DNA of 64,000 nucleotides from a virus. Taxonomy: Duplodnaviria; Caudoviricetes. The position numbers were made by a program, and so were the translations under genes. The notes under the pieces were generated by a model that had not been told where the DNA came from, did not search any database, and saw only the letters and a list, made by a program, of their open reading frames with translations. Positions 50,661 through 64,000 of this stretch are shown piece after piece; position 1 is the first letter of the stretch; the number at the start of each line of letters is the position of its first letter. The stretch lies in IMG/VR virus record IMGVR_UViG_3300032007_000010; one strand, 5' to 3'.

Positions 50661-52022
50661 ATGAATAATCTCACAAAACGCAAGTATCGTTTTACCTACG
50701 GCTATGCCTTTCCCGAGAAACATCCGGAGTGCCCTGATTTCGAGGGTGAGTACTACGTACAGCTCAGCGACACCGACGTGATCGAAGAGGGCGAAACTCC
50801 CAACGAAGCAGGTTTCCTCGTCGTGGCCATGGACCGCTTCGTCGAAGAGCGTAATACCATGGAGCTCAACGAGACTGAGGAGTATGAGCTTCACAGCATC
50901 ACAATCGTTCCCATCACCAGAACGGTTAAGGATCCCAGCGATGTATTGAAAGCACTCATGGATGATTACGTCAATGAGGCGGATTCCATGACTGATCTGA
51001 TCCTCTGCTGGCTCGATGAGGATGAGTCTCATACCCTCACCGACGAGGAGATCCAAACCCTGATCGAGTTTGCCGGGGATGAGAACTATGTGACGGTGGA
51101 AGACATTCGACACATGTCGACGCATGACCCAATGTGCAATGTCGAACCTTACAAGAATGCACAGGCCATGTTTGACGTCATGAAAGAACTCGACGTTGGC
51201 AGCGATCATTTCACCGAGAGACTCAAATATGTTGATAGGCGCATCGAGATTGACACCGAATGTCTCAACACCGCCTGCGGCAATAAAGAAACCAGTCGTT
51301 ATCTGCACCGCATCAATCAGCTTAAGAAATATAAGAAGATGCTCAACATGATTGCGTTCATCGATCGTGTGGAGTCTTCGGATTTGAACGAACGGCTCAT
51401 CATGCTCCGGCTGATCGCGGAACAATTCGGTGTACCGATAATCACGGCTGAACAGGGGAATGAATCTGCAGCCCCTGGTGCATATGGTTCCGGCAAGGTT
51501 GATGGTGTGATTGCCATGGGCGAAACCGTCACATTCGACGGCATCGAATGGATCGTGGTCAATGTGGACAAGGATAGATACACCCTCATGAAGAAGACGA
51601 TCGACAAGATCTCCGCGTTCGGACTCTCCACAAATTATCGCGGTTCGTACATTGCTGATAGATGCGAAGAGTTTCAGGCCCACATGAGCAATGCTGCACT
51701 TTCGATGATCAGCGATAAAACTGTCCAGGGGGTCACTGCCAAGGTATGGATCGCCACCAAGTCCATGATCGAAGAATGGACGGATTCCGACAATCCCACC
51801 AACAACATGTATGGTAGTGTGCGTGTGTGGGATTTCCAAGATACGACGATCGATGCTAAGAAAAACGGTTCCTACTGGTGCCCCGATCCGTCCGACTCCA
51901 ACTATGTCTGGTACGTTAATTGTGGCGGCTACTTCCTCAACTACATTCCGAGCGATGCGCGTGGGTTCCGCCCCTGCATCGAAGTTATTGGGAGGGGCGA
52001 GCATGTATCCAATGTCACCTGA
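50661..52022 (+). CDS. Protein with C-terminal CLec-like (DUF6273-like) domain and DGR-type variable region
   Basis: GGAGG RBS; C-terminal FDGIEWIVV...YWC..VW..GFRPCIEV is paralogous to the 57229-61146 genes. Confidence 0.75.
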   Translation: MNNLTKRKYRFTYGYAFPEKHPECPDFEGEYYVQLSDTDVIEEGETPNEAGFLVVAMDRFVEERNTMELNETEEYELHSITIVPITRTVKDPSDVLKALMDDYVNEADSMTDLILCWLDEDESHTLTDEEIQTLIEFAGDENYVTVEDIRHMSTHDPMCNVEPYKNAQAMFDVMKELDVGSDHFTERLKYVDRRIEIDTECLNTACGNKETSRYLHRINQLKKYKKMLNMIAFIDRVESSDLNERLIMLRLIAEQFGVPIITAEQGNESAAPGAYGSGKVDGVIAMGETVTFDGIEWIVVNVDKDRYTLMKKTIDKISAFGLSTNYRGSYIADRCEEFQAHMSNAALSMISDKTVQGVTAKVWIATKSMIEEWTDSDNPTNNMYGSVRVWDFQDTTIDAKKNGSYWCPDPSDSNYVWYVNCGGYFLNYIPSDARGFRPCIEVIGRGEHVSNVT

Positions 52023-57228: not shown

Positions 57229-57894
57229 ATGGGAACAATCTATGGTGATGCACTCAAATCTGGAGGGAAGTTCGACTTCAGTGGAGCGAATGTAACAGTG
57301 GATGATTTGCCAATCGGTGTATATGCTTGGGATGCTAATGGTACACTGATAGGACGGGAAGCAGATCCTGGTGAATACGGCTCCAATGTCATCTCCGGAA
57401 CTCTTACCAAAGGTTCATATGTACGTTTTGATGGCATCGACTGGATCGTTGCGAATGTCTCCGGCAACACCTACACCCTGATGCTGAAGAAGATGACCGA
57501 GACCACAACCTTCGGTTCGTCGACCAGCTATAGTGGCAGTACCATCACGTCGAAGTGCACGACCTTCCAGAATGCGATGTCGGCGAATGCGCTGTCGGTG
57601 GTCAACTCGAAGACGGTACAGTCGGTTACAGCGGAGGTGTGGATCGCTACGAGATCCGACATCGAATCCTGGACCGATAGCAACGACCAGACCAGTTCTG
57701 CCTGGTCTGGCATTCGCAAGTGGACGGGCTCGTCCGAGGATGACTATGCCGTGAAAGACATCTATAGCTACTGGTGCTCTGATCCGGACGGCTCCGGCCG
57801 TGTCTGGGCCGTCGCTTACATCGGCCTCTTCGTCAACGACAACGGTCCGAGCTATGCGCGTGGGTTCCGCCCTTGTATCGAAGTTGTACAATGA
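57229..57894 (+). CDS. CLec-like (DUF6273-like) receptor-binding protein, DGR-type VR at 57769-57873
   Basis: C-terminal YWC..VW..GFRPCIEV, GC-rich hairpin just downstream. Confidence 0.75.
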   Translation: MGTIYGDALKSGGKFDFSGANVTVDDLPIGVYAWDANGTLIGREADPGEYGSNVISGTLTKGSYVRFDGIDWIVANVSGNTYTLMLKKMTETTTFGSSTSYSGSTITSKCTTFQNAMSANALSVVNSKTVQSVTAEVWIATRSDIESWTDSNDQTSSAWSGIRKWTGSSEDDYAVKDIYSYWCSDPDGSGRVWAVAYIGLFVNDNGPSYARGFRPCIEVVQ

Positions 57895-57956
57895 ACAAAA
57901 GTGACCCGCCCAGGAGCGGGCGGGTCTTCTCATAACAATGAAAGGAGGAATGCTCC

Positions 57957-58670
57957 TTGATTCAGAATCAACCAAATCCCAATACCATATCAGAGCTCCA
58001 GGCTGAGATCAACTACTGGAAAAGGCGGTATGAGGAGAAAACTTTTGACTTTTCTGGGGCCACCGCAACACCGGACGATATTCTCCAGGGGGTTAAGGCT
58101 TGGGATGCCACCGGCACACTGATCACTGGCACTTATGTGTTTCCTGGTGAATATGGTTCTCCCGAGATTGCTGGTACTCTCACAAAGGGCTCATACGTCA
58201 GGTTCGATGGGTTGGATTGGATTATCGCCAAGGTGAACGGTTCCACCTACACACTCATGCTGAAGAAGATGACGGAGACGACGCAGTTTGGCTCGTCGAT
58301 CTACTACAGTGGTTCGACAATCGCATCCAAGTGCACGACCTTCCAGGGTACCATGTCTGCCGAGGCGCTGTCGGTCGTCAACTCCAAGACCGTACAATCT
58401 GTCACGGCCAAAGTGTGGATTGCCCAGAAGACCGACATCGAATCCTGGACTGTCAGCAGCGAACCGTCTTCGTCAGATTGGTCTGGTATTCGCAAATGGA
58501 CCGCCAACGATGGCATCTACGATTCGGTCGGAGCTACCAACTACTGGTGCTCGAATACGAACGACTCCAGTTATGTCTGGATCGTCACTTCCGACGGCTA
58601 CTTCTACGGCCGCAATAGTCCGAGTAAGACGTATGGTTTCCGACCCTGCATCGAAGTCACTCAATCCTGA
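57957..58670 (+). CDS. CLec-like receptor-binding paralog, VR-like segment at 58542-58646
   Basis: Close paralog of 57229..57894. Confidence 0.75.
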   Translation: MIQNQPNPNTISELQAEINYWKRRYEEKTFDFSGATATPDDILQGVKAWDATGTLITGTYVFPGEYGSPEIAGTLTKGSYVRFDGLDWIIAKVNGSTYTLMLKKMTETTQFGSSIYYSGSTIASKCTTFQGTMSAEALSVVNSKTVQSVTAKVWIAQKTDIESWTVSSEPSSSDWSGIRKWTANDGIYDSVGATNYWCSNTNDSSYVWIVTSDGYFYGRNSPSKTYGFRPCIEVTQS

Positions 58671-58749
58671 TCATAGATAACAGCCCCGCCTCCATCAAGG
58701 GGCGGGGCACCCATCGTTTCAAAATCAATCAATAAAGGAGGAATTTCAC

Positions 58750-60075
58750 ATGGGAATCGTATCGGGCTTCGGAGCAAATCCCGGCATCGGAGCCGTGATT
58801 GATCTTAGGAAGAAGGTTGAACTCTGCCCGAGCATCATCGTGAATGTGCCCACCGGCAGCACGGTATCCTGCACGAAGGGTACGATCAGTCTCACCGCAC
58901 TGTCCATCGATGTTGGAGCGGAGACGGATACCCATACCTTCCAACCCACCGAGGAGGGAACCTGGACGCTGAGAGCCACGCTCGGTGAGGACGAGAGTGA
59001 AACCGAGGTGTTGGTCGAGAAGACCAACTACGAAGAGGATCTCGAATACTTCACCAATCCCATCGAGGGAAATGTTGTGCCCGGTCAGGTTGTCACCTTT
59101 GACAACAAGAGCTGGATTGTCCAGCACGTGGATGGAAACATTGCCTATTTGGCATCCAACGGGATTCTGTCCACGGGTGCGTTCAACAGCAACAGCAGAA
59201 ACGCGTACCTTGGCTCGGATCTAGCAGCCAAAGCTGCTGACTACCAAACAAACAACATGAGTGCCAAAGCGCTCAAATATTGTCAGGATGTTACCGTCAA
59301 CGGAGTTACCAGCAAGGTCTTCATTCCCTCTAAAGCTCAGTATGAATCCGAATGGAGCTGGCCGTCTGCCTCGGCGGACAACCGCAAGCAGACCGGCGGC
59401 AACAGCTGGTATTGGACCTCTTCGCCGTATCCCAACGACTCCAGCAATGTGTGGTTCGTGGATGGCAACTTCAACAGCATCATCGCCAACTATGCCGATG
59501 GCGGTTTCCGGCCCGCGGTGGCCGTGAAGTTCCGCAAGGAGATCGGAGACGGTGAATATGGTTCTTCCAAGATCGCCGGCACTCTGGAGAAGGGTCAATT
59601 CGTCAAATTTGATGGGCAGGATTGGATCGTTGCCAATGTATCTGGTTCAACCTATACGTTGATGTTGAAGAAGATGACGGAGACCACTGCATTTGGATCC
59701 AGCACAACATACTCTGGCAGCACCATCGCATCCAAGTGCACGACCTTCCAGAACGCGATGTCGGCCAATGCACTGTCAGTGGTCAACTCGAAGACGGTCC
59801 AGAGCTTCACCGCCAAGGTATGGATTGCAACAAAATCCGACATCGAATCCTGGACCGATACTGCTAATCCGACCAGTTCTGCCTGGTCTGGTATCAGAAA
59901 ATGGTCTGGAACCACTGAAGATGACTATGCCGTGTCGGGTATCTATACCTATTGGTGCTCTGATCTGGACGGTTCCAGCTTTGTCTGGGAGGCCGAGAAT
60001 CAAGGTAATTTCGGCAGCAGCGCTCCGGCTGCTGTGTTTGGCTTCCGTCCCTGTATCGAAGTCACCCAAAGCTAA
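58750..60075 (+). CDS. Protein with two tandem CLec-like domains (VR-like 59410-59514 and 59950-60051)
   Basis: GFRPAV and GFRPCIEV domain ends. Confidence 0.75.
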   Translation: MGIVSGFGANPGIGAVIDLRKKVELCPSIIVNVPTGSTVSCTKGTISLTALSIDVGAETDTHTFQPTEEGTWTLRATLGEDESETEVLVEKTNYEEDLEYFTNPIEGNVVPGQVVTFDNKSWIVQHVDGNIAYLASNGILSTGAFNSNSRNAYLGSDLAAKAADYQTNNMSAKALKYCQDVTVNGVTSKVFIPSKAQYESEWSWPSASADNRKQTGGNSWYWTSSPYPNDSSNVWFVDGNFNSIIANYADGGFRPAVAVKFRKEIGDGEYGSSKIAGTLEKGQFVKFDGQDWIVANVSGSTYTLMLKKMTETTAFGSSTTYSGSTIASKCTTFQNAMSANALSVVNSKTVQSFTAKVWIATKSDIESWTDTANPTSSAWSGIRKWSGTTEDDYAVSGIYTYWCSDLDGSSFVWEAENQGNFGSSAPAAVFGFRPCIEVTQS

Positions 60076-60093
60076 CAAAGGAGGTATATCATC

Positions 60094-61146
60094 ATGGCGT
60101 TTCTGTCTCTCGGTGTTCTCAATCGGAACAAACCAAACATCAGGGATGTCCTCCTGCACAAACCCTCAACATCGTCCCAGCTCGTATATACCGGGGAGTC
60201 GCTCTCCCCGGTCTGGGACAACTATGATCCGGACAAACTCACCATCTCCGGGGATCTCTCCGGGATCAACGCTGGTACCTATACCACGACATTCACTCCG
60301 AAGCTCGGAGTATTCTGGGAGGATGGGACAAGTAACCCGTACAATGTTGGCTGGAGCATCGGCAAGGCCACACCCACCGCAAGCATCGACAAGAGTACCG
60401 TGACCCTGGATGCGAGCAAGACCTCCGACACAATCACGGTGACCACGAATTCGGATGGTGCGGTCAGTGCAAGCAGTGACAACACCGGAGTTGCCACGAC
60501 CAGCGTATCCGGAAAGGTTGTGACCGTTTCTTCGGTCAACGATACCACCGGCAGCGCCAATGTCAGCATCGGTGTCGGTGCCGGAAATAATTACATCGCC
60601 TATCCGAGCGTCATGAGCGTGGCGGTCACCACCAGCTTCTTTGTCAATCCGCTCAACAAGGATACCATGACACTTGGGGATGAAACCGTTTACTTCACCG
60701 CCTATCCGTCCATTACCTGGCAGGTACAGCATCTGGATGGGAATTATGCCTATCTGGCGTTGTATCCGATAACTGAACGGAGTGTATTTGGTTCCAGTAC
60801 AACCTATTCCGGATCCACCATTGCACAGAAGTGCACAGACTATCTGAATAACACCATACCCAATGTTGCTGACTATCTGGAAGAGGTCACTGTGAACGGT
60901 GTCACTGCTAAGGTCTTCATTCCTTCTAAAGCTATGTATCAGACCGAGTGGAATTGGCCGAAGACCAGCGCTTCCAATCGTAGTTGCATGATAAACGGTG
61001 CCTATATAGCATATTGTACATCTACTGCGGCCGACTCCGGCAGTGTGTGGAGCGTGAGTGGCGATGGCAACTTCTACAGCGGCTACGGCCCGTCGGCTGC
61101 GTTCGGCTTCCGTCCAGCGGTTAAAGTTAAATATAAAGCTTTGTAA
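60094..61146 (+). CDS. Ig-like repeats plus CLec-like domain (VR-like 61012-61116)
   Basis: Thr/Ser-rich Ig-like segments (NAGTY, SSDNTGVATTSV) followed by GFRPAVKV. Confidence 0.72.
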   Translation: MAFLSLGVLNRNKPNIRDVLLHKPSTSSQLVYTGESLSPVWDNYDPDKLTISGDLSGINAGTYTTTFTPKLGVFWEDGTSNPYNVGWSIGKATPTASIDKSTVTLDASKTSDTITVTTNSDGAVSASSDNTGVATTSVSGKVVTVSSVNDTTGSANVSIGVGAGNNYIAYPSVMSVAVTTSFFVNPLNKDTMTLGDETVYFTAYPSITWQVQHLDGNYAYLALYPITERSVFGSSTTYSGSTIAQKCTDYLNNTIPNVADYLEEVTVNGVTAKVFIPSKAMYQTEWNWPKTSASNRSCMINGAYIAYCTSTAADSGSVWSVSGDGNFYSGYGPSAAFGFRPAVKVKYKAL

Positions 61147-61532
61147 AGATGATGCTTGTGTGTTTACTCATATATCAATCATTCACGATGTAATTATCAG
61201 CTGAATTTGTCCCAGGGGCCATCATAGTGCTCCTGGGACACGTTTTTGTACAACGGCTATCCATTCTCAATGTTCTCGGCTTTGTCACTGTTCTGGCACC
61301 AAAGAAAGAGATCGGTGATGAGCTGATATATGGATGAGGATGATCCCGGACGTTGTGATATGCTGGAAAAGATGCGTCGCAACATTAAATACAATAACTT
61401 TCATCCGATCAGCAGTCACTATCCGGACTGCTACTATCTTTTGCCACATGCGGCATGCTGGAACATGGACTAGCAACGATTCAAACGAAGAAAAGACGGA
61501 CCCGACCTGGGTCCGTCTCTTTTTTTTTGTTG

Positions 61533-61823
61533 TCAATCGTGTTTTTCGAGCATGTCGTACCCGGAGACCTCACCATTTTCCGCGAGTAGCTCGGAGGCAT
61601 CCTCGTTGAACGGGACTGTTCCAAAGTATTTCTCGCAGTCCTTGTTGGTGCAGAGGAACACAGGCTCACCGCGCAGAAAAATACCAACCTTGGCGCCACA
61701 TTTTGGGCAGACCTCGGGCACATCCTCACCCTTGTCATTCTTGCGTGGGATCTTTTTGTTCGATTTCTCGTTGAGCAACATTCCAGCTGTCTCCAGGAGT
61801 TGCTTCAGTTCGTTATCATTCAT
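61533..61823 (-). CDS. Small zinc-ribbon protein
   Basis: CPKCG..C...C, GAGGAG RBS. Confidence 0.65.
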   Translation of the reverse strand: MNDNELKQLLETAGMLLNEKSNKKIPRKNDKGEDVPEVCPKCGAKVGIFLRGEPVFLCTNKDCEKYFGTVPFNEDASELLAENGEVSGYDMLEKHD

Positions 61824-61836
61824 GGATATTCTCTCC

Positions 61837-63900
61837 TCACATGATGAGTCCAATGAGCGATTCCATTTCAGCACTCACAGACTCGTTGGTGGTCTTTTCC
61901 TGGGATTCGATGAATTTCTCGAGCTCCTCCATGGCCGAGAGCTGCTGCTTCTCGATCTCGGCAAGCTTCTTGGCGATGCTCTCGCAGGCTCTGGAGGATT
62001 GACGTTCGATCTCGGTCAGAGTGTTCACCGAGGATTTGGTGGTGTTCGCGTCCTCGATGATGATCTGATTGAGTTCCACAGAATCCTTGGTTTTGTCGGA
62101 GGAAACATTTTTGTGTCTCTCGAACCATTCCTTGATGCTCTTGATCATGTTTCTGACAATTTCGATGAATCGAGCGAATAGCTTTCTCAGGAAATCGATC
62201 GCCTTCTTGACAGCAGTTTTCACATGACTCCAGAGGGTTGCAACCGTGATTGCCTCCAGCAAGGTTCCCTCGTCGAGCACAGGAACATCGAATTCGTCAT
62301 CCGTCGACTGTGCAAAGTACCATGCCTCGCCGAGCATCTCGGCCGCCTCGTTTAGGTAGCTCTCGGCCGAAGCGTATAGATCAACATCCATCGCATCCTC
62401 GACGATGAGCGAATTCCTGGCATAGTGAACCTTCACACCTTTGATCTTCTTGAACTTCGGATCCAGATTCATATGACCCGGATTGCACATCGAGAGATAG
62501 ATGTTCTTTGAACCATGATCGATTAGACTCTGGAGCAGTTCATTCACATCGGTGAAGGTACCATGTTCGGTGGAAATCGGCTGGCAAGTCCAGACCATAT
62601 CACGATTGGCACGTCGAATCAATTCATTGCCAGCGCGAGCTCCACGATTTGTGATCTTCGACTGATCTGCGATCTCATCCTTGTACTTTTGATAATCAGT
62701 CCAGAGTTTGTGAGCATTCTTCTTATCGGAATCGGTCAGATCATTGTCTGGATAATGTTTGTCAAAATCAACAACATATTTGATTATCTGCCATGAGCAG
62801 TAGGGATTATCGATTGGATCAAGTTCCTTTTCAAAAAACTTATCAAGCGACTTGTTTTGGTTCTGATAGTTGCGCAGAGCCTTCTTCTGCATATCCAATA
62901 TTTTCTTATCAGAATCGGAGGGTTCACCTTTGCTCTCTACTCGTTTGATGGCAGATTCAAGGCCGTCGATCATGTCGTCGTTGGATATGTGTAGATACTC
63001 GAGTGCACTGTTTAGTTCATATGCACCATGCTCGAACGCATCGAAATAATCCTTCACCTTTCGTTTCGAATCAAGCAGATCGATCTCGGTTTTATGCTTA
63101 ATGCGTCTCATTTCTCTGTTGGTCGTATTGGCATCCTTGTATTTGTAGCTACCATGACATGAAACAACGGTATCGTACTCGATGCAATGCTGAATAATAC
63201 GATCGATGGTTTCGGTATGCTCAAAACCCGTTTTCCCCTTGGTTACGTAGAATTTTCCCGCTCCGAGCTTGGAGAAGTCGTAACCGTAGCTCGTCTTGAA
63301 GCTCTTCTCATTGTCCTTGAGGGCATCCTTGATATTCTTCACCGAAAGCGCTCGTACCTGATCATCATTGGACTCGAGTCCACGCATGAGCACCAGTGCC
63401 TCGGCTTCGGTGTATCCGAGTAGCTCATGATTCATGGAAAGCATTGCTCGGAGCGCCGCACAGATCATGTCACAATAGTCGATGCGGCTTTGGATCATGC
63501 GATGAACTTTCTTTGGATCAGTCTCCTTTGTTCCATACCCAACCGAGAGAATCAATTCGCTTGCAAGATTGTCCCAATCACTACGATACTCGGCGTTTTC
63601 TCCGGTATATTCAGCAAAGCGTTCTGCAAAGGTTTTGATCGAAGAGCACATGCGTTCAAAGACGAGCAGGTTATTATTACGCTGAAGCAGTTCTTTGGTA
63701 TCATAGATGCCGGCTCTAACCTTGGTGTTGCGAGAATTTTCTAGGTACTGGTCGATCTTGTTGTACTTGTCGGTTAGTTCATCAAGATGAGCACTCGCCA
63801 TCGCATTGTAAGCACCAACAATGTTCTCGGAGAGCAGGATCGCTTCGTCGCGTTCCTTGTGATAGTCCTCGATGGCGATGTGAATCATGTCATCCAGCAC
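61837..63900 (-). CDS. Probable internal head protein (may extend upstream beyond the window)
   Basis: Long ORF with repeated xxE|S/A/D motifs (LNEA, LLEA, TNES, IVED). Confidence 0.6.
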   Translation of the reverse strand: MLDDMIHIAIEDYHKERDEAILLSENIVGAYNAMASAHLDELTDKYNKIDQYLENSRNTKVRAGIYDTKELLQRNNNLLVFERMCSSIKTFAERFAEYTGENAEYRSDWDNLASELILSVGYGTKETDPKKVHRMIQSRIDYCDMICAALRAMLSMNHELLGYTEAEALVLMRGLESNDDQVRALSVKNIKDALKDNEKSFKTSYGYDFSKLGAGKFYVTKGKTGFEHTETIDRIIQHCIEYDTVVSCHGSYKYKDANTTNREMRRIKHKTEIDLLDSKRKVKDYFDAFEHGAYELNSALEYLHISNDDMIDGLESAIKRVESKGEPSDSDKKILDMQKKALRNYQNQNKSLDKFFEKELDPIDNPYCSWQIIKYVVDFDKHYPDNDLTDSDKKNAHKLWTDYQKYKDEIADQSKITNRGARAGNELIRRANRDMVWTCQPISTEHGTFTDVNELLQSLIDHGSKNIYLSMCNPGHMNLDPKFKKIKGVKVHYARNSLIVEDAMDVDLYASAESYLNEAAEMLGEAWYFAQSTDDEFDVPVLDEGTLLEAITVATLWSHVKTAVKKAIDFLRKLFARFIEIVRNMIKSIKEWFERHKNVSSDKTKDSVELNQIIIEDANTTKSSVNTLTEIERQSSRACESIAKKLAEIEKQQLSAMEELEKFIESQEKTTNESVSAEMESLIGLIM

Positions 63901-64000
63901 ACCACCGTGAACAAAATCGGCTTTTTCCAGATGATCCGGATGTGCAATGTTTGTTCCATTCCACTCGGCACGGAGGCGCTCTTCGTTCCATCCTTTATGT

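What the first reader, a model, noticed from the sequence alone, without database searches (positions are those of the whole stretch)
57229..61146. Array of CLec-like receptor-binding domains with a DGR-style adenine-mutagenesis signature, and no RT or TR in the window
Seen in sequence: five paralogous domains here (plus one at 51873) end in Y(W/C)..S..VW.V...G.F.....GFRP. Upstream, the paralogs differ largely by synonymous changes. In the last ~35 codons they differ at codon positions 1-2 while position 3 stays C or T. Example, 51873 vs 57769: tcc/gac, gac/ggc, aac/ggc, tat/cgt, tac/gcc, aat/gct, ggc/atc, tac/ctc, att/ggt, gat/tat, then identical GCGCGTGGGTTCCGCCC. This back-projects to a template like CCG AAC AAC TCC AAC AAT GTC TGG AAC GTC AAT AAC AAC GGC AAC TTC AAC AAC... 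Established: diversity-generating retroelements mutate TR adenines in AAY codons within C-terminal CLec folds. Inference: a multi-target, trans-acting DGR diversifies a jumbo-phage adhesin array. Copies at 58542 and 59950 show third-position drift and may be retired targets.
Basis: partly seen in the sequence, partly recalled or inferred. Interest (0 to 1): 0.86.

Follow-up and report, generated by a model that had tools for sequence, protein, structure and literature searches.

The report
Jumbo-phage DGR target array, mostly retired
A 288-kb gut phage of ruminants carries a row of lectin-like tail-protein domains shaped by a mutagenic reverse-transcriptase system (a DGR) whose genes lie 16-19 kb past the window; one domain in the row is still being rewritten, and the others look like leftovers of a different template that was not found, so this is a known kind of system in an unusually rich layout.

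Summary
Six paralogous domains ending in GFRP lie in the window: A, B, C, D1, D2 and E. The window holds no template repeat (TR) and no reverse transcriptase (RT).

A and B differ at codon positions 1 and 2 but almost never at position 3. In the variable region (VR), 2 of 26 third positions differ, against 65 of 111 in the framework (p = 1.5e-6).

I reached DNA beyond the window through a public contig that is identical to the window over a 4,265-nt overlap. It holds a complete diversity-generating retroelement (DGR):
- a target gene with its own VR (VR0);
- a divergent Avd;
- a 101-nt AAC-rich template, TR1;
- an RT with the IGxxxSQ and YMDD motifs.

TR1 lies 19 kb from the array. It matches VR0 and, within the array, only D1 (11 of 11 mismatches at template adenines). 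D1 is active. Against its ortholog in another sample, 16 of 30 adenine sites differ but only 1 of 65 other sites.

It needs a second template, and I found none in the 79.7 kb I could read. A and C are static between strains, and D2 has drifted. They are probably orphaned targets.

This is a new member of a known kind. Other first-stage notes on overlapping windows of this same genome had already flagged the cassette.

The parts
50661..52022 (+). Gene A: acidic N-terminal part plus one C-terminal CLec-like domain (class 2, ends GFRPCIEV)
   Evidence: ORF and alignment. The gene call starts at 50661. The ortholog in a 95.5%-identical phage is L171 920-2320.
51885..51974 (+). VR of A (class 2): carries a DGR footprint but is static between strains, so probably retired
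   Evidence: Only 2 of 26 third-position differences to B, against 65 of 111 in the framework. Twenty adenine-site and 19 non-adenine mismatches to TR1. Only 5 differences to the L171 ortholog, 4 of them synonymous third-position transitions, against a 4.5% background. Contigs of three other samples align straight through it (table 8).
57229..57894 (+). Gene B: short N-terminal adaptor plus a CLec-like domain (class 2)
   Evidence: ORF. AlphaFold2 model with pLDDT 85.4. VIA-align Z = 13.1 to 9qa6 (N-terminal part), 8.9 to the Lcl C-terminal domain, 7.3 to TvpA, 6.0 to Mtd, plus many C-type lectin domains.
57781..57873 (+). VR of B (class 2): the best-preserved footprint of the unseen template TR2; status open
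   Evidence: Third-position differences in the VR are 0 of 27 to P0005, 2 of 27 to P0002 and 2 of 26 to P0004. In the frameworks they are 45 of 111, 28 of 110 and 50 of 111. Twenty-six non-adenine mismatches to TR1. A contig of another sample matches both flanks but not 57756-57845 (table 5).
57957..58670 (+). Gene C: coiled N-terminal part plus a CLec-like domain (class 2)
   Evidence: ORF and alignment.
58554..58646 (+). VR of C (class 2): static, partly drifted
   Evidence: Identical in all but one base (58643, a synonymous third position in the conserved 3' tail) to L173 from another sample; on the same pair of contigs, D1 differs at 16 of 30 adenine sites. Contains an AAG (Lys) codon. Twenty-three non-adenine mismatches to TR1.
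58750..60075 (+). Gene D: one protein with two CLec-like domains, D1 (class 1) and D2 (class 2)
   Evidence: ORF. Pfam DUF6273 at 20.4 bits, below the 23.5 cut-off, on residues 182-260. The ortholog in L173 keeps D1 but has a different D2.
59421..59515 (+). VR of D1: an internal VR and an active, non-adjacent target of TR1, about 19 kb from the template
   Evidence: Eleven of 11 mismatches to TR1 are at TR adenines, with a 6-nt in-frame gap (p = 7e-7). Against the L173 ortholog, 16 of 30 adenine sites differ but 1 of 65 other sites. Identity upstream is 95.8%.
59962..60051 (+). VR of D2 (class 2): drifted, retired
   Evidence: Third-position differences to B are 8 of 26, against 48 of 112 in the framework, not significant. 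Has Glu and Gln codons that AAY mutagenesis cannot give. Thirty non-adenine mismatches to TR1.
60094..61146 (+). Gene E: N-terminal Ig-like part (phrog_37900) plus a CLec-like domain ending GFRPAVKV
   Evidence: PHROG hit at 2.8e-35 on residues 22-180. Alignment.
61027..61116 (+). VR of E: a hybrid. The 5' 54 nt (61034-61087) fit TR1; the 3' part does not
   Evidence: Twelve of 12 mismatches are at TR1 adenines over 54 nt. Over the whole VR there are 16 non-adenine mismatches. The 3' part resembles the class-2 tail.

Best explanation
The array is a set of phage surface or tail proteins whose C-terminal C-type-lectin-like (CLec) domains were each written by DGR mutagenic retrohoming.

The phage has one visible DGR cassette. 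It lies on the minus strand just past the window, in the order target(VR0) - Avd - TR1 - RT. TR1 sits at window-equivalent 78,493-78,593. Transcribed TR1 is reverse-transcribed with random bases opposite adenines, and the cDNA replaces a homologous VR. In this genome that happens at the cassette's own target (VR0) and, in trans over about 19 kb and on the opposite strand, at D1 inside gene D.

The other copies (A, B, C, D2, and a further paralog about 96 kb before the window) carry the footprint of a different, closely related template, which I call TR2. E is a hybrid. No TR2 lies in the 79.7 kb I could read, and A and C do not change between strains. These are therefore most likely orphaned targets, either brought in by the modular recombination that reshuffles this array or left behind after loss of their template.

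Shown: the cassette, the TR1-VR0 and TR1-D1 pairs, D1's hypervariability between strains, and the stasis of A and C. Inferred: receptor binding, orphan status, and the origin by recombination.
For: Reaching the cassette: contig L040 is identical to the window over a 4,265-nt overlap.

The cassette:
- RT: RVT_1 at 52.8 bits against a cut-off of 29.6. It has the IGFQTSQ and YMDD motifs. Its best solved relative is 8ub7_A, the Bordetella phage DGR RT, at E = 1.5e-28.
- The 190-aa protein between the target and TR1 is a divergent Avd. Thirteen of 28 homologs hit Pfam bAvd. Its model (pLDDT 89.7) matches the Avd chains of 8ub7/8ub8 at TM 0.78-0.80.

Template-target pairs:
- TR1 vs VR0: 18 of 19 mismatches at adenines.
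- TR1 vs D1: 11 of 11.

Activity:
- D1 vs its ortholog in another sample: 16 of 30 adenine sites differ, 1 of 65 other sites.
- C, 750 nt away on the same pair of contigs, is identical across the variable part of its VR.
- A differs from its ortholog in a 95.5%-identical phage only by ordinary drift.

Class 2 (A, B, C, D2):
- 19-30 non-adenine mismatches to TR1.
- No other template in the window or L040.
- VR scaffolds are nearly identical across paralogs and samples, although third positions of the frameworks differ by 25-59%.

Array content differs between 95.5%-identical phages.

Fold: CLec-like.
Against: About 208 kb of the 288-kb genome could not be read, so a TR2 there is not excluded.

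B's VR shows no third-position drift against its relatives (0 of 27 to P0005). In one other sample B's flanks align but the VR core does not. Both would fit recent or ongoing homing at B.

Stasis of A and C could also reflect selection for one variant, or loss of cis elements, while TR2 is still present.

Activity at D1 is shown between samples, not within one population. Only assembled contigs, not raw reads, were available.

No assay shows that any of these proteins binds a receptor.
Confidence: 0.7

Rival explanations
1. A second template (TR2), perhaps with further ones, lies in the unread part of the genome. The same RT uses it to keep diversifying the class-2 copies, at least B and perhaps the paralog about 96 kb before the window. 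The whole array would then be a live network with several templates and several targets.
For: Class-2 VR scaffolds are almost free of third-position change between paralogs and between samples. The counts are 2 of 26 for A-B, 0 of 27 for B-P0005 and 2 of 27 for B-P0002, while the frameworks differ at 25-59% of third positions. So a conserved TR2 has written them repeatedly and recently. B's VR core cannot be aligned in a related strain whose flanks do align. A contig end from another sample reads like a nearly unmutated class-2 repeat (table 7).
Against: No TR2 within 18 kb on one side of the RT or 1.5 kb on the other, nor anywhere in the window. A is static in the strains compared and C is identical in another. 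D2 has drifted. First-stage notes on all eight windows of the genome list only one cassette; those notes are unverified.
Confidence: 0.2
2. Diversifying selection on the ligand-binding loops, together with gene conversion among paralogs, produced the class-2 pattern without any retroelement.
For: The paralogs recombine freely: array content is mosaic between close relatives. Receptor-binding loops are common targets of positive selection.
Against: Selection does not hold third positions at C or T while changing both first and second positions in about half of 26 codons. The same motif layout is demonstrably templated by TR1 in D1 and VR0. Of 180 residues in the variable codons, 165 are ones that AAY mutagenesis can give.
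Confidence: 0.04
3. All copies in the array, D1 included, are relics, and the cassette acts only on its adjacent target or is dead.
For: D1 is 6 nt shorter than TR1 and VR0 is 3 nt longer, which could be read as decay.
Against: D1 and its ortholog differ at 16 of 30 TR1 adenine sites and at 1 of 65 other sites, in an otherwise 96-100% identical gene. The ortholog's VR still matches TR1 at every internal non-adenine position. All genes of the cassette are intact. In-frame indels inside AAC runs are a reported DGR by-product (PMC12875486).
Confidence: 0.03

Closest known systems
Bordetella phage BPP-1 DGR (mtd - avd - TR - brt)
   Same: Same gene order: target, accessory protein, TR, RT. The RT is its closest solved relative (8ub7_A, E = 1.5e-28). 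Both have an Avd-like helical bundle and adenine-only TR/VR mismatches. In both, the VR sits in a CLec fold of a phage surface protein; Mtd scores Z = 6.0.
   Different: This RT has 470 aa against 328, with a basic C-terminal extension. The Avd has 190 aa and does not itself reach a Pfam Avd model. There are at least two TR1 targets, one of them 19 kb away, on the other strand and internal to its protein. The genome is about 288 kb and holds at least eight CLec domains in three VR classes.
DGRs with several or non-adjacent targets (survey of Wu et al. 2018, PMC5758913; Treponema denticola TvpA as the extreme case)
   Same: [quoted passage not shown] Phage-associated DGRs often have non-adjacent targets within 50 kb of the RT. 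D1 at 19 kb fits that pattern. TvpA is a structural neighbour at Z = 7.3.
   Different: Here most look-alike VRs do not fit the resident TR. A class-2 paralog lies about 175 kb from the cassette within the same phage genome. The survey found such distances almost only in DGRs without phage association (all but one), and this copy is not shown to be a target.
DUF6273 (PF19789) and DUF1566-type CLec domains: Legionella Lcl C-terminal domain, N-terminal region of the Thomasclavelia ramosa IgA peptidase
   Same: These are the best structural matches: 9qa6_A at Z = 13.1 with 152 residues aligned, and 8q4e_A at Z = 8.9. Several relatives carry a precomputed DUF6273 hit.
   Different: The window's own proteins stay below the Pfam cut-off (20.4 against 23.5 bits). 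None of those solved proteins is known to me as a DGR target (own knowledge, not tested).

Membership tests
Diversity-generating retroelement (DGR) | Reverse transcriptase of the DGR type (RVT_1 with the [I/L]GxxxSQ motif and YxDD) | tested here: met
   L040 1517-2929: RVT_1 at 52.8 bits, above the 29.6 cut-off. IGFQTSQ and YMDD are present. The best PDB match is the Bordetella DGR RT 8ub7_A at 1.5e-28. It lies outside the window, on a contig identical to the window over 4,265 nt.
Diversity-generating retroelement (DGR) | A TR/VR pair whose mismatches fall essentially only at TR adenines | tested here: met
   TR1 vs VR0: 18 of 19. TR1 vs D1: 11 of 11 (p = 7e-7). TR1 vs the 5' 54 nt of E: 12 of 12. 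Not met for A, B, C and D2 against TR1: 19-30 non-adenine mismatches.
Diversity-generating retroelement (DGR) | Accessory protein (Avd or HRDC) next to the TR | tested here: met
   The 190-aa protein itself has no Pfam hit. Thirteen of 28 homologs hit bAvd PF22296 and 3 hit PF05635. The model's best Foldseek rows are members of the 23S rRNA IVP family and the Avd chains of 8ub7/8ub8 (TM 0.78-0.80, E = 0.02-0.4). The support is indirect but consistent.
Diversity-generating retroelement (DGR) | Hypervariability of the VR in natural populations, confined to TR-adenine positions | tested here: met
   D1 vs its L173 ortholog: 16 of 30 adenine sites, 1 of 65 other sites. Not met for A or C. Within-sample read data could not be had, because all runs were kept as contigs.
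Diversity-generating retroelement (DGR) | Target-recognition elements at the 3' end of the VR (GC-rich IMH and a nearby hairpin) | tested here: inconclusive
   All VRs end in a GC-rich GGN-TTC-CGN-CC tail. GC-rich hairpins follow B (57903-57926) and C (58683-58708), but none follows D1, which is internal to its gene. The hairpins may simply be terminators.
C-type-lectin-like (CLec / FGE-sulfatase) fold of DGR variable proteins | Predicted fold superposes on solved CLec-fold variable proteins, with the VR forming the C-terminal face | tested here: met
   Model of B: pLDDT 85.4, pTM 0.78. Most of the 50 VIA-align rows shown are CLec or FGE-type folds, including TvpA at Z = 7.3 and Mtd at Z = 6.0. 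Foldseek E-values are weak, at least 0.013.
Pfam DUF6273 (PF19789) | Score at or above the family's gathering cut-off | tested here: not met
   The best score is gene D at 20.4 bits against 23.5. The other five proteins have no hit. Some relatives have precomputed hits. The domain is therefore a distant relative, not a scored member.

The most novel reading that the evidence does not exclude
One RT serves several template classes spread over a 288-kb phage genome. On this reading an unseen TR2 keeps B and a paralog about 175 kb from the cassette diversifying. That would make this a phage with a genome-wide network of several templates and several targets, with a phage-borne target more than 100 km of sequence scale beyond what surveys report, that is, more than 100 kb from the RT, a distance seen almost only in DGRs without phage association.
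Probability: 0.15. Interest if true: 0.65.

Novelty: new member of a known kind. Interest (0 to 1): 0.45.

Why it matters
DGRs are the only known natural system of targeted protein hypermutation in prokaryotes and their viruses.

This phage offers a natural side-by-side comparison within one locus:
- one target that is being rewritten (D1);
- neighbours of the same fold that are not (A, C);
- a hybrid (E).

That is useful material for working out which cis features make a VR a live target, and how receptor-binding modules are swapped between phages and then lose their template.

The related RTs sit on many 200-330 kb contigs from gut samples. This suggests that DGRs are common equipment of gut and rumen jumbo phages. 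The literature searches run here did not surface a study of DGRs in jumbo phages; in the jumbo-phage review read the term occurs only in the reference list.

Tried and rejected
Searches for the genome or its relatives:
- GenBank phage megablast of the array: no match.
- IMG/VR by peptide patterns, by the VR pattern and by the family alignment: nothing.
- JGI metagenome scan with a degenerate VR/TR pattern: 38 loci, none from this contig. Only three are family members (L018, L031, L034), and none of those holds a TR.
The listed loci are mostly from GC-rich genomes such as Streptomyces, and the three loci inspected (L088, L138, L148) were chance matches.
- No whole genome is held for this window.
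- The 287,669-nt ENA contig is listed but gives no DNA.
- A related 236-kb RT contig is withheld.
- The rest of the genome, about 208 kb, therefore stayed unread.

Search for TR2:
- A virtual TR2 built from nine class-2 VRs found only TR1 and the VRs themselves in all held DNA.
- It found nothing in the scan's index of earlier findings.

Laid contigs:
- The apparent variants at D1 in the source sample come from VR0 of contig L040 cross-mapping onto D1. They are not polymorphism.
- Unitig breaks near VRs can be explained by the paralog repeats.

Other:
- The RT homolog list did not show the window's own contig, so it cannot say whether a second RT exists.
- The hairpin search after each VR was inconclusive.
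- Length differences between TR1 and its VRs (+3, -6, +6 nt in the AAC run) looked novel at first. Such indels, explained by slippage in multiples of three within AAC repeats, are already described (PMC12875486).


Full report
**What is in the window.** Genes on the + strand between 50.6 and 61.1 kb encode six copies of one domain of about 165 residues. They are A (gene 50661-52022), B (57229-57894), C (57957-58670), D1 and D2 (both in gene 58750-60075) and E (60094-61146). Pfam gives only a sub-threshold DUF6273 hit on gene D: 20.4 bits against a cut-off of 23.5. The N-terminal part of E matches phrog_37900, a family of unknown function.

The wider window holds a large terminase subunit, a phage RNA polymerase beta subunit, a helicase and an HNH endonuclease. 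The proteins sit on a contig of about 287.7 kb from a bovine gut metagenome. The jumbo-phage setting is therefore right.

**The observation.** Differences at codon positions 1/2/3 are:
- A vs B, framework: 45/46/65 of 111 codons.
- A vs B, last 26 aligned VR codons: 12/11/2.

Third positions are almost frozen while first and second positions vary (Fisher p = 1.5e-6). B vs C shows the same inversion more weakly: 4 of 27 against 55 of 111. B vs D2 does not show it (8 of 26 against 48 of 112).

The window has no template. An adenine-tolerant scan with each VR finds nothing better than the paralogs. It also has no RT motif.

**Finding the retroelement.** No whole genome is held for this window, and the ENA contig gives no DNA. 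Notes from other first-stage readers placed a cassette 12.7-17 kb beyond the window's end. I treated that as a lead only.

Two exact-protein look-ups led to a 19,998-nt Logan contig of run SRR9008756, locus L040. Its last 4,265 nt are identical to window 59736-64000. The coordinate mapping is: window-equivalent = 79734 minus the L040 position. On the window's minus strand it holds, in order:

| Element | L040 position | Window-equivalent | Notes |
|---|---|---|---|
| End of a target gene with VR0 | 42-143 | 79,591-79,692 | the cassette's own target |
| 190-aa protein (Avd) | 459-1031 | 78,703-79,275 | divergent Avd |
| Template TR1 (101 nt, AAC-rich) | 1141-1241 | 78,493-78,593 | |
| RT (470 aa) | 1517-2929 | 76,805-78,217 | |

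The RT passes Pfam RVT_1 and has the IGFQTSQ and YMDD motifs. Its best solved relative is the Bordetella phage DGR RT (8ub7_A, E = 1.5e-28).

The 190-aa protein has no Pfam hit of its own. However, 13 of 28 homologs hit the bAvd model. Its confident model (pLDDT 89.7) is a helical bundle. Its best Foldseek rows are members of the 23S rRNA IVP family and the Avd chains of the DGR ribonucleoprotein structures, at TM 0.78-0.80.

**Which copies does TR1 fit?**

| VR | Mismatches to TR1 | Length against TR1 |
|---|---|---|
| VR0 | 18 of 19 at adenines; the exception is at the 5' edge | +3 nt |
| D1 (59421-59515) | 11 of 11 at adenines, p = 7e-7 | -6 nt |
| E, 5' 54 nt (61034-61087) | 12 of 12 at adenines | 3' half unlike TR1, resembles the class-2 tail |
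| A, B, C, D2 | 19-30 non-adenine mismatches | cannot be TR1 products |

It describes a sister template, which I call TR2.

**Is anything active?** Contig L173, from another sample, carries the ortholog of gene D.
- The 664 nt upstream of D1's VR are 95.8% identical.
- Inside the VR, the two copies differ at 16 of 30 TR1-adenine sites and at 1 of 65 other sites.
- The ortholog's VR still agrees with this genome's TR1 at every internal non-adenine position, and it carries a 6-nt in-frame insertion in the AAC run.

This is the expected trace of repeated mutagenic homing since the strains split. D1 is thus a live, non-adjacent target: 19 kb from the template, on the opposite strand, and internal to its protein.

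On the same pair of contigs, C's VR, 750 nt upstream of D1's, is identical across its whole variable part.

A's VR differs from its ortholog in a 95.5%-identical phage (L171) at 5 sites. Four are synonymous third-position transitions, which matches the background rate. Contigs from three more samples align straight through A's VR (table 8). A and C therefore evolve like ordinary sequence.

**What the class-2 copies are.** Their footprint is real. Across nine class-2 domains from this and other samples, mean pairwise difference per codon position (positions 1/2/3) is:
- VR codons: 0.48 / 0.47 / 0.26.
- Framework codons: 0.26 / 0.26 / 0.51.

B's VR has 0 of 27, 2 of 27 and 2 of 26 third-position differences to three relatives, whose frameworks differ at 41%, 25% and 45% of third positions. 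So a conserved TR2 has written these VRs after the domains diverged.

TR2 is not in the window or in L040, and a virtual TR2 finds nothing in any locus fetched.

Array content is mosaic between close relatives. L171 has five CLec genes, all with tails ending GFRP(A/E)V, as in D1 and E. It has no counterpart of B, C or D2. L173 has a different D2.

The simplest reading is this. Recombination moves receptor-binding modules between phages that carry different templates. Modules that land in a genome without their template become orphans. B remains open, because its VR shows no drift and because in one other sample its flanks align while its VR core does not.

**Fold and function.** The model of B (pLDDT 85.4) matches CLec-type folds in most of the 50 rows shown:
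- the N-terminal region of a Thomasclavelia ramosa IgA peptidase, Z = 13.1;
- the Legionella Lcl C-terminal domain, Z = 8.9;
- TvpA, Z = 7.3;
- Mtd, Z = 6.0;
- many animal C-type lectin domains, Z about 6.

Foldseek E-values are weak. Receptor binding is inferred by analogy with Mtd. It was not tested.

**Comparison with what is known.**
- Multi-target and non-adjacent targets are documented. In phage-linked DGRs they lie mostly within 50 kb of the RT (PMC5758913).
- In-frame indels in AAC runs have been ascribed to slippage (PMC12875486).
- DGRs are very common in gut phages (PMC8241571).

The system is thus a new member of a known kind. Its less usual traits are:
- the number of CLec domains: at least eight in the genome, counting VR0 and a class-2 paralog (P0003) that first-stage notes place about 96 kb before the window;
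- three VR classes against one visible template;
- a long RT with a C-terminal extension;
- a divergent, long Avd.

RTs 40-54% identical to this one sit on many 200-330 kb contigs.

**Limits.** About 208 kb of the genome could not be read, and only assembled contigs, not raw reads, were available. The absence of TR2 and the orphan status of class 2 therefore remain inferences.

Noticed in passing
L040:1141-1241 against L040:42-143, window:59421-59515 and L173:901-1005: VRs templated by TR1 differ from it in length by +3, -6 and +6 nt. The +3 and +6 lie inside the (AAC)4 run; the -6 removes the adjacent AAT-AAC codons. All are in frame. Class-2 VRs likewise carry 4 to 6 codons at the equivalent run. 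This fits the slippage in multiples of three reported for DGR RTs (PMC12875486).
   Followed up: partly
L040:1517-2929: The RT has 470 aa, against 328 for the Bordetella phage enzyme. The extra 130 residues or so at the C-terminus are rich in Lys and Arg. The Avd-like protein (190 aa) also has a C-terminal extension; both extensions contain a short D-x-[DN]-G-F-[VI]-[IV]-L motif.
   Followed up: no
P0020-P0139: RTs 40-54% identical to this one sit on many contigs of 200-330 kb. Several are filed as MAGs of Ruminococcus, Lachnospiraceae or Muribaculaceae. This DGR clade seems widespread in gut and rumen jumbo phages, some of them binned as bacteria.
   Followed up: no
L041:8225-10270, and L042-L046: A class-2 CLec protein (P0011, 147 aa) is identical on eight contigs from several samples. 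It sits next to two DUF6273 proteins in what looks like a bacterial integrative element (integrase, SLH-domain protein, resolvase, ParA/ParB, large methylase-helicase). No RT lies within 10 kb. This may be a hint to the host lineage, or a case of module transfer.
   Followed up: partly
L171 (ena:ERZ27274630:k141_487253, record 7305-28096): A 169.7-kb contig of a 95.5%-identical phage is syntenic with window 49-64 kb but has a different set of five CLec genes. By synteny, the contig ends just where the RT gene would begin, which suggests the assembly broke at the DGR.
   Followed up: partly
window:61837-64000 and L040:9712-17897: Three large tandem paralogs (760, 763 and 1061 aa) with no family hit lie between the array and the DGR cassette. 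They are followed by a 796-aa protein with an acetyltransferase domain.
   Followed up: no
window:47873-48883: An HNH endonuclease gene (phrog_374, E = 6.7e-55) lies just upstream of the operon that holds gene A.
   Followed up: no
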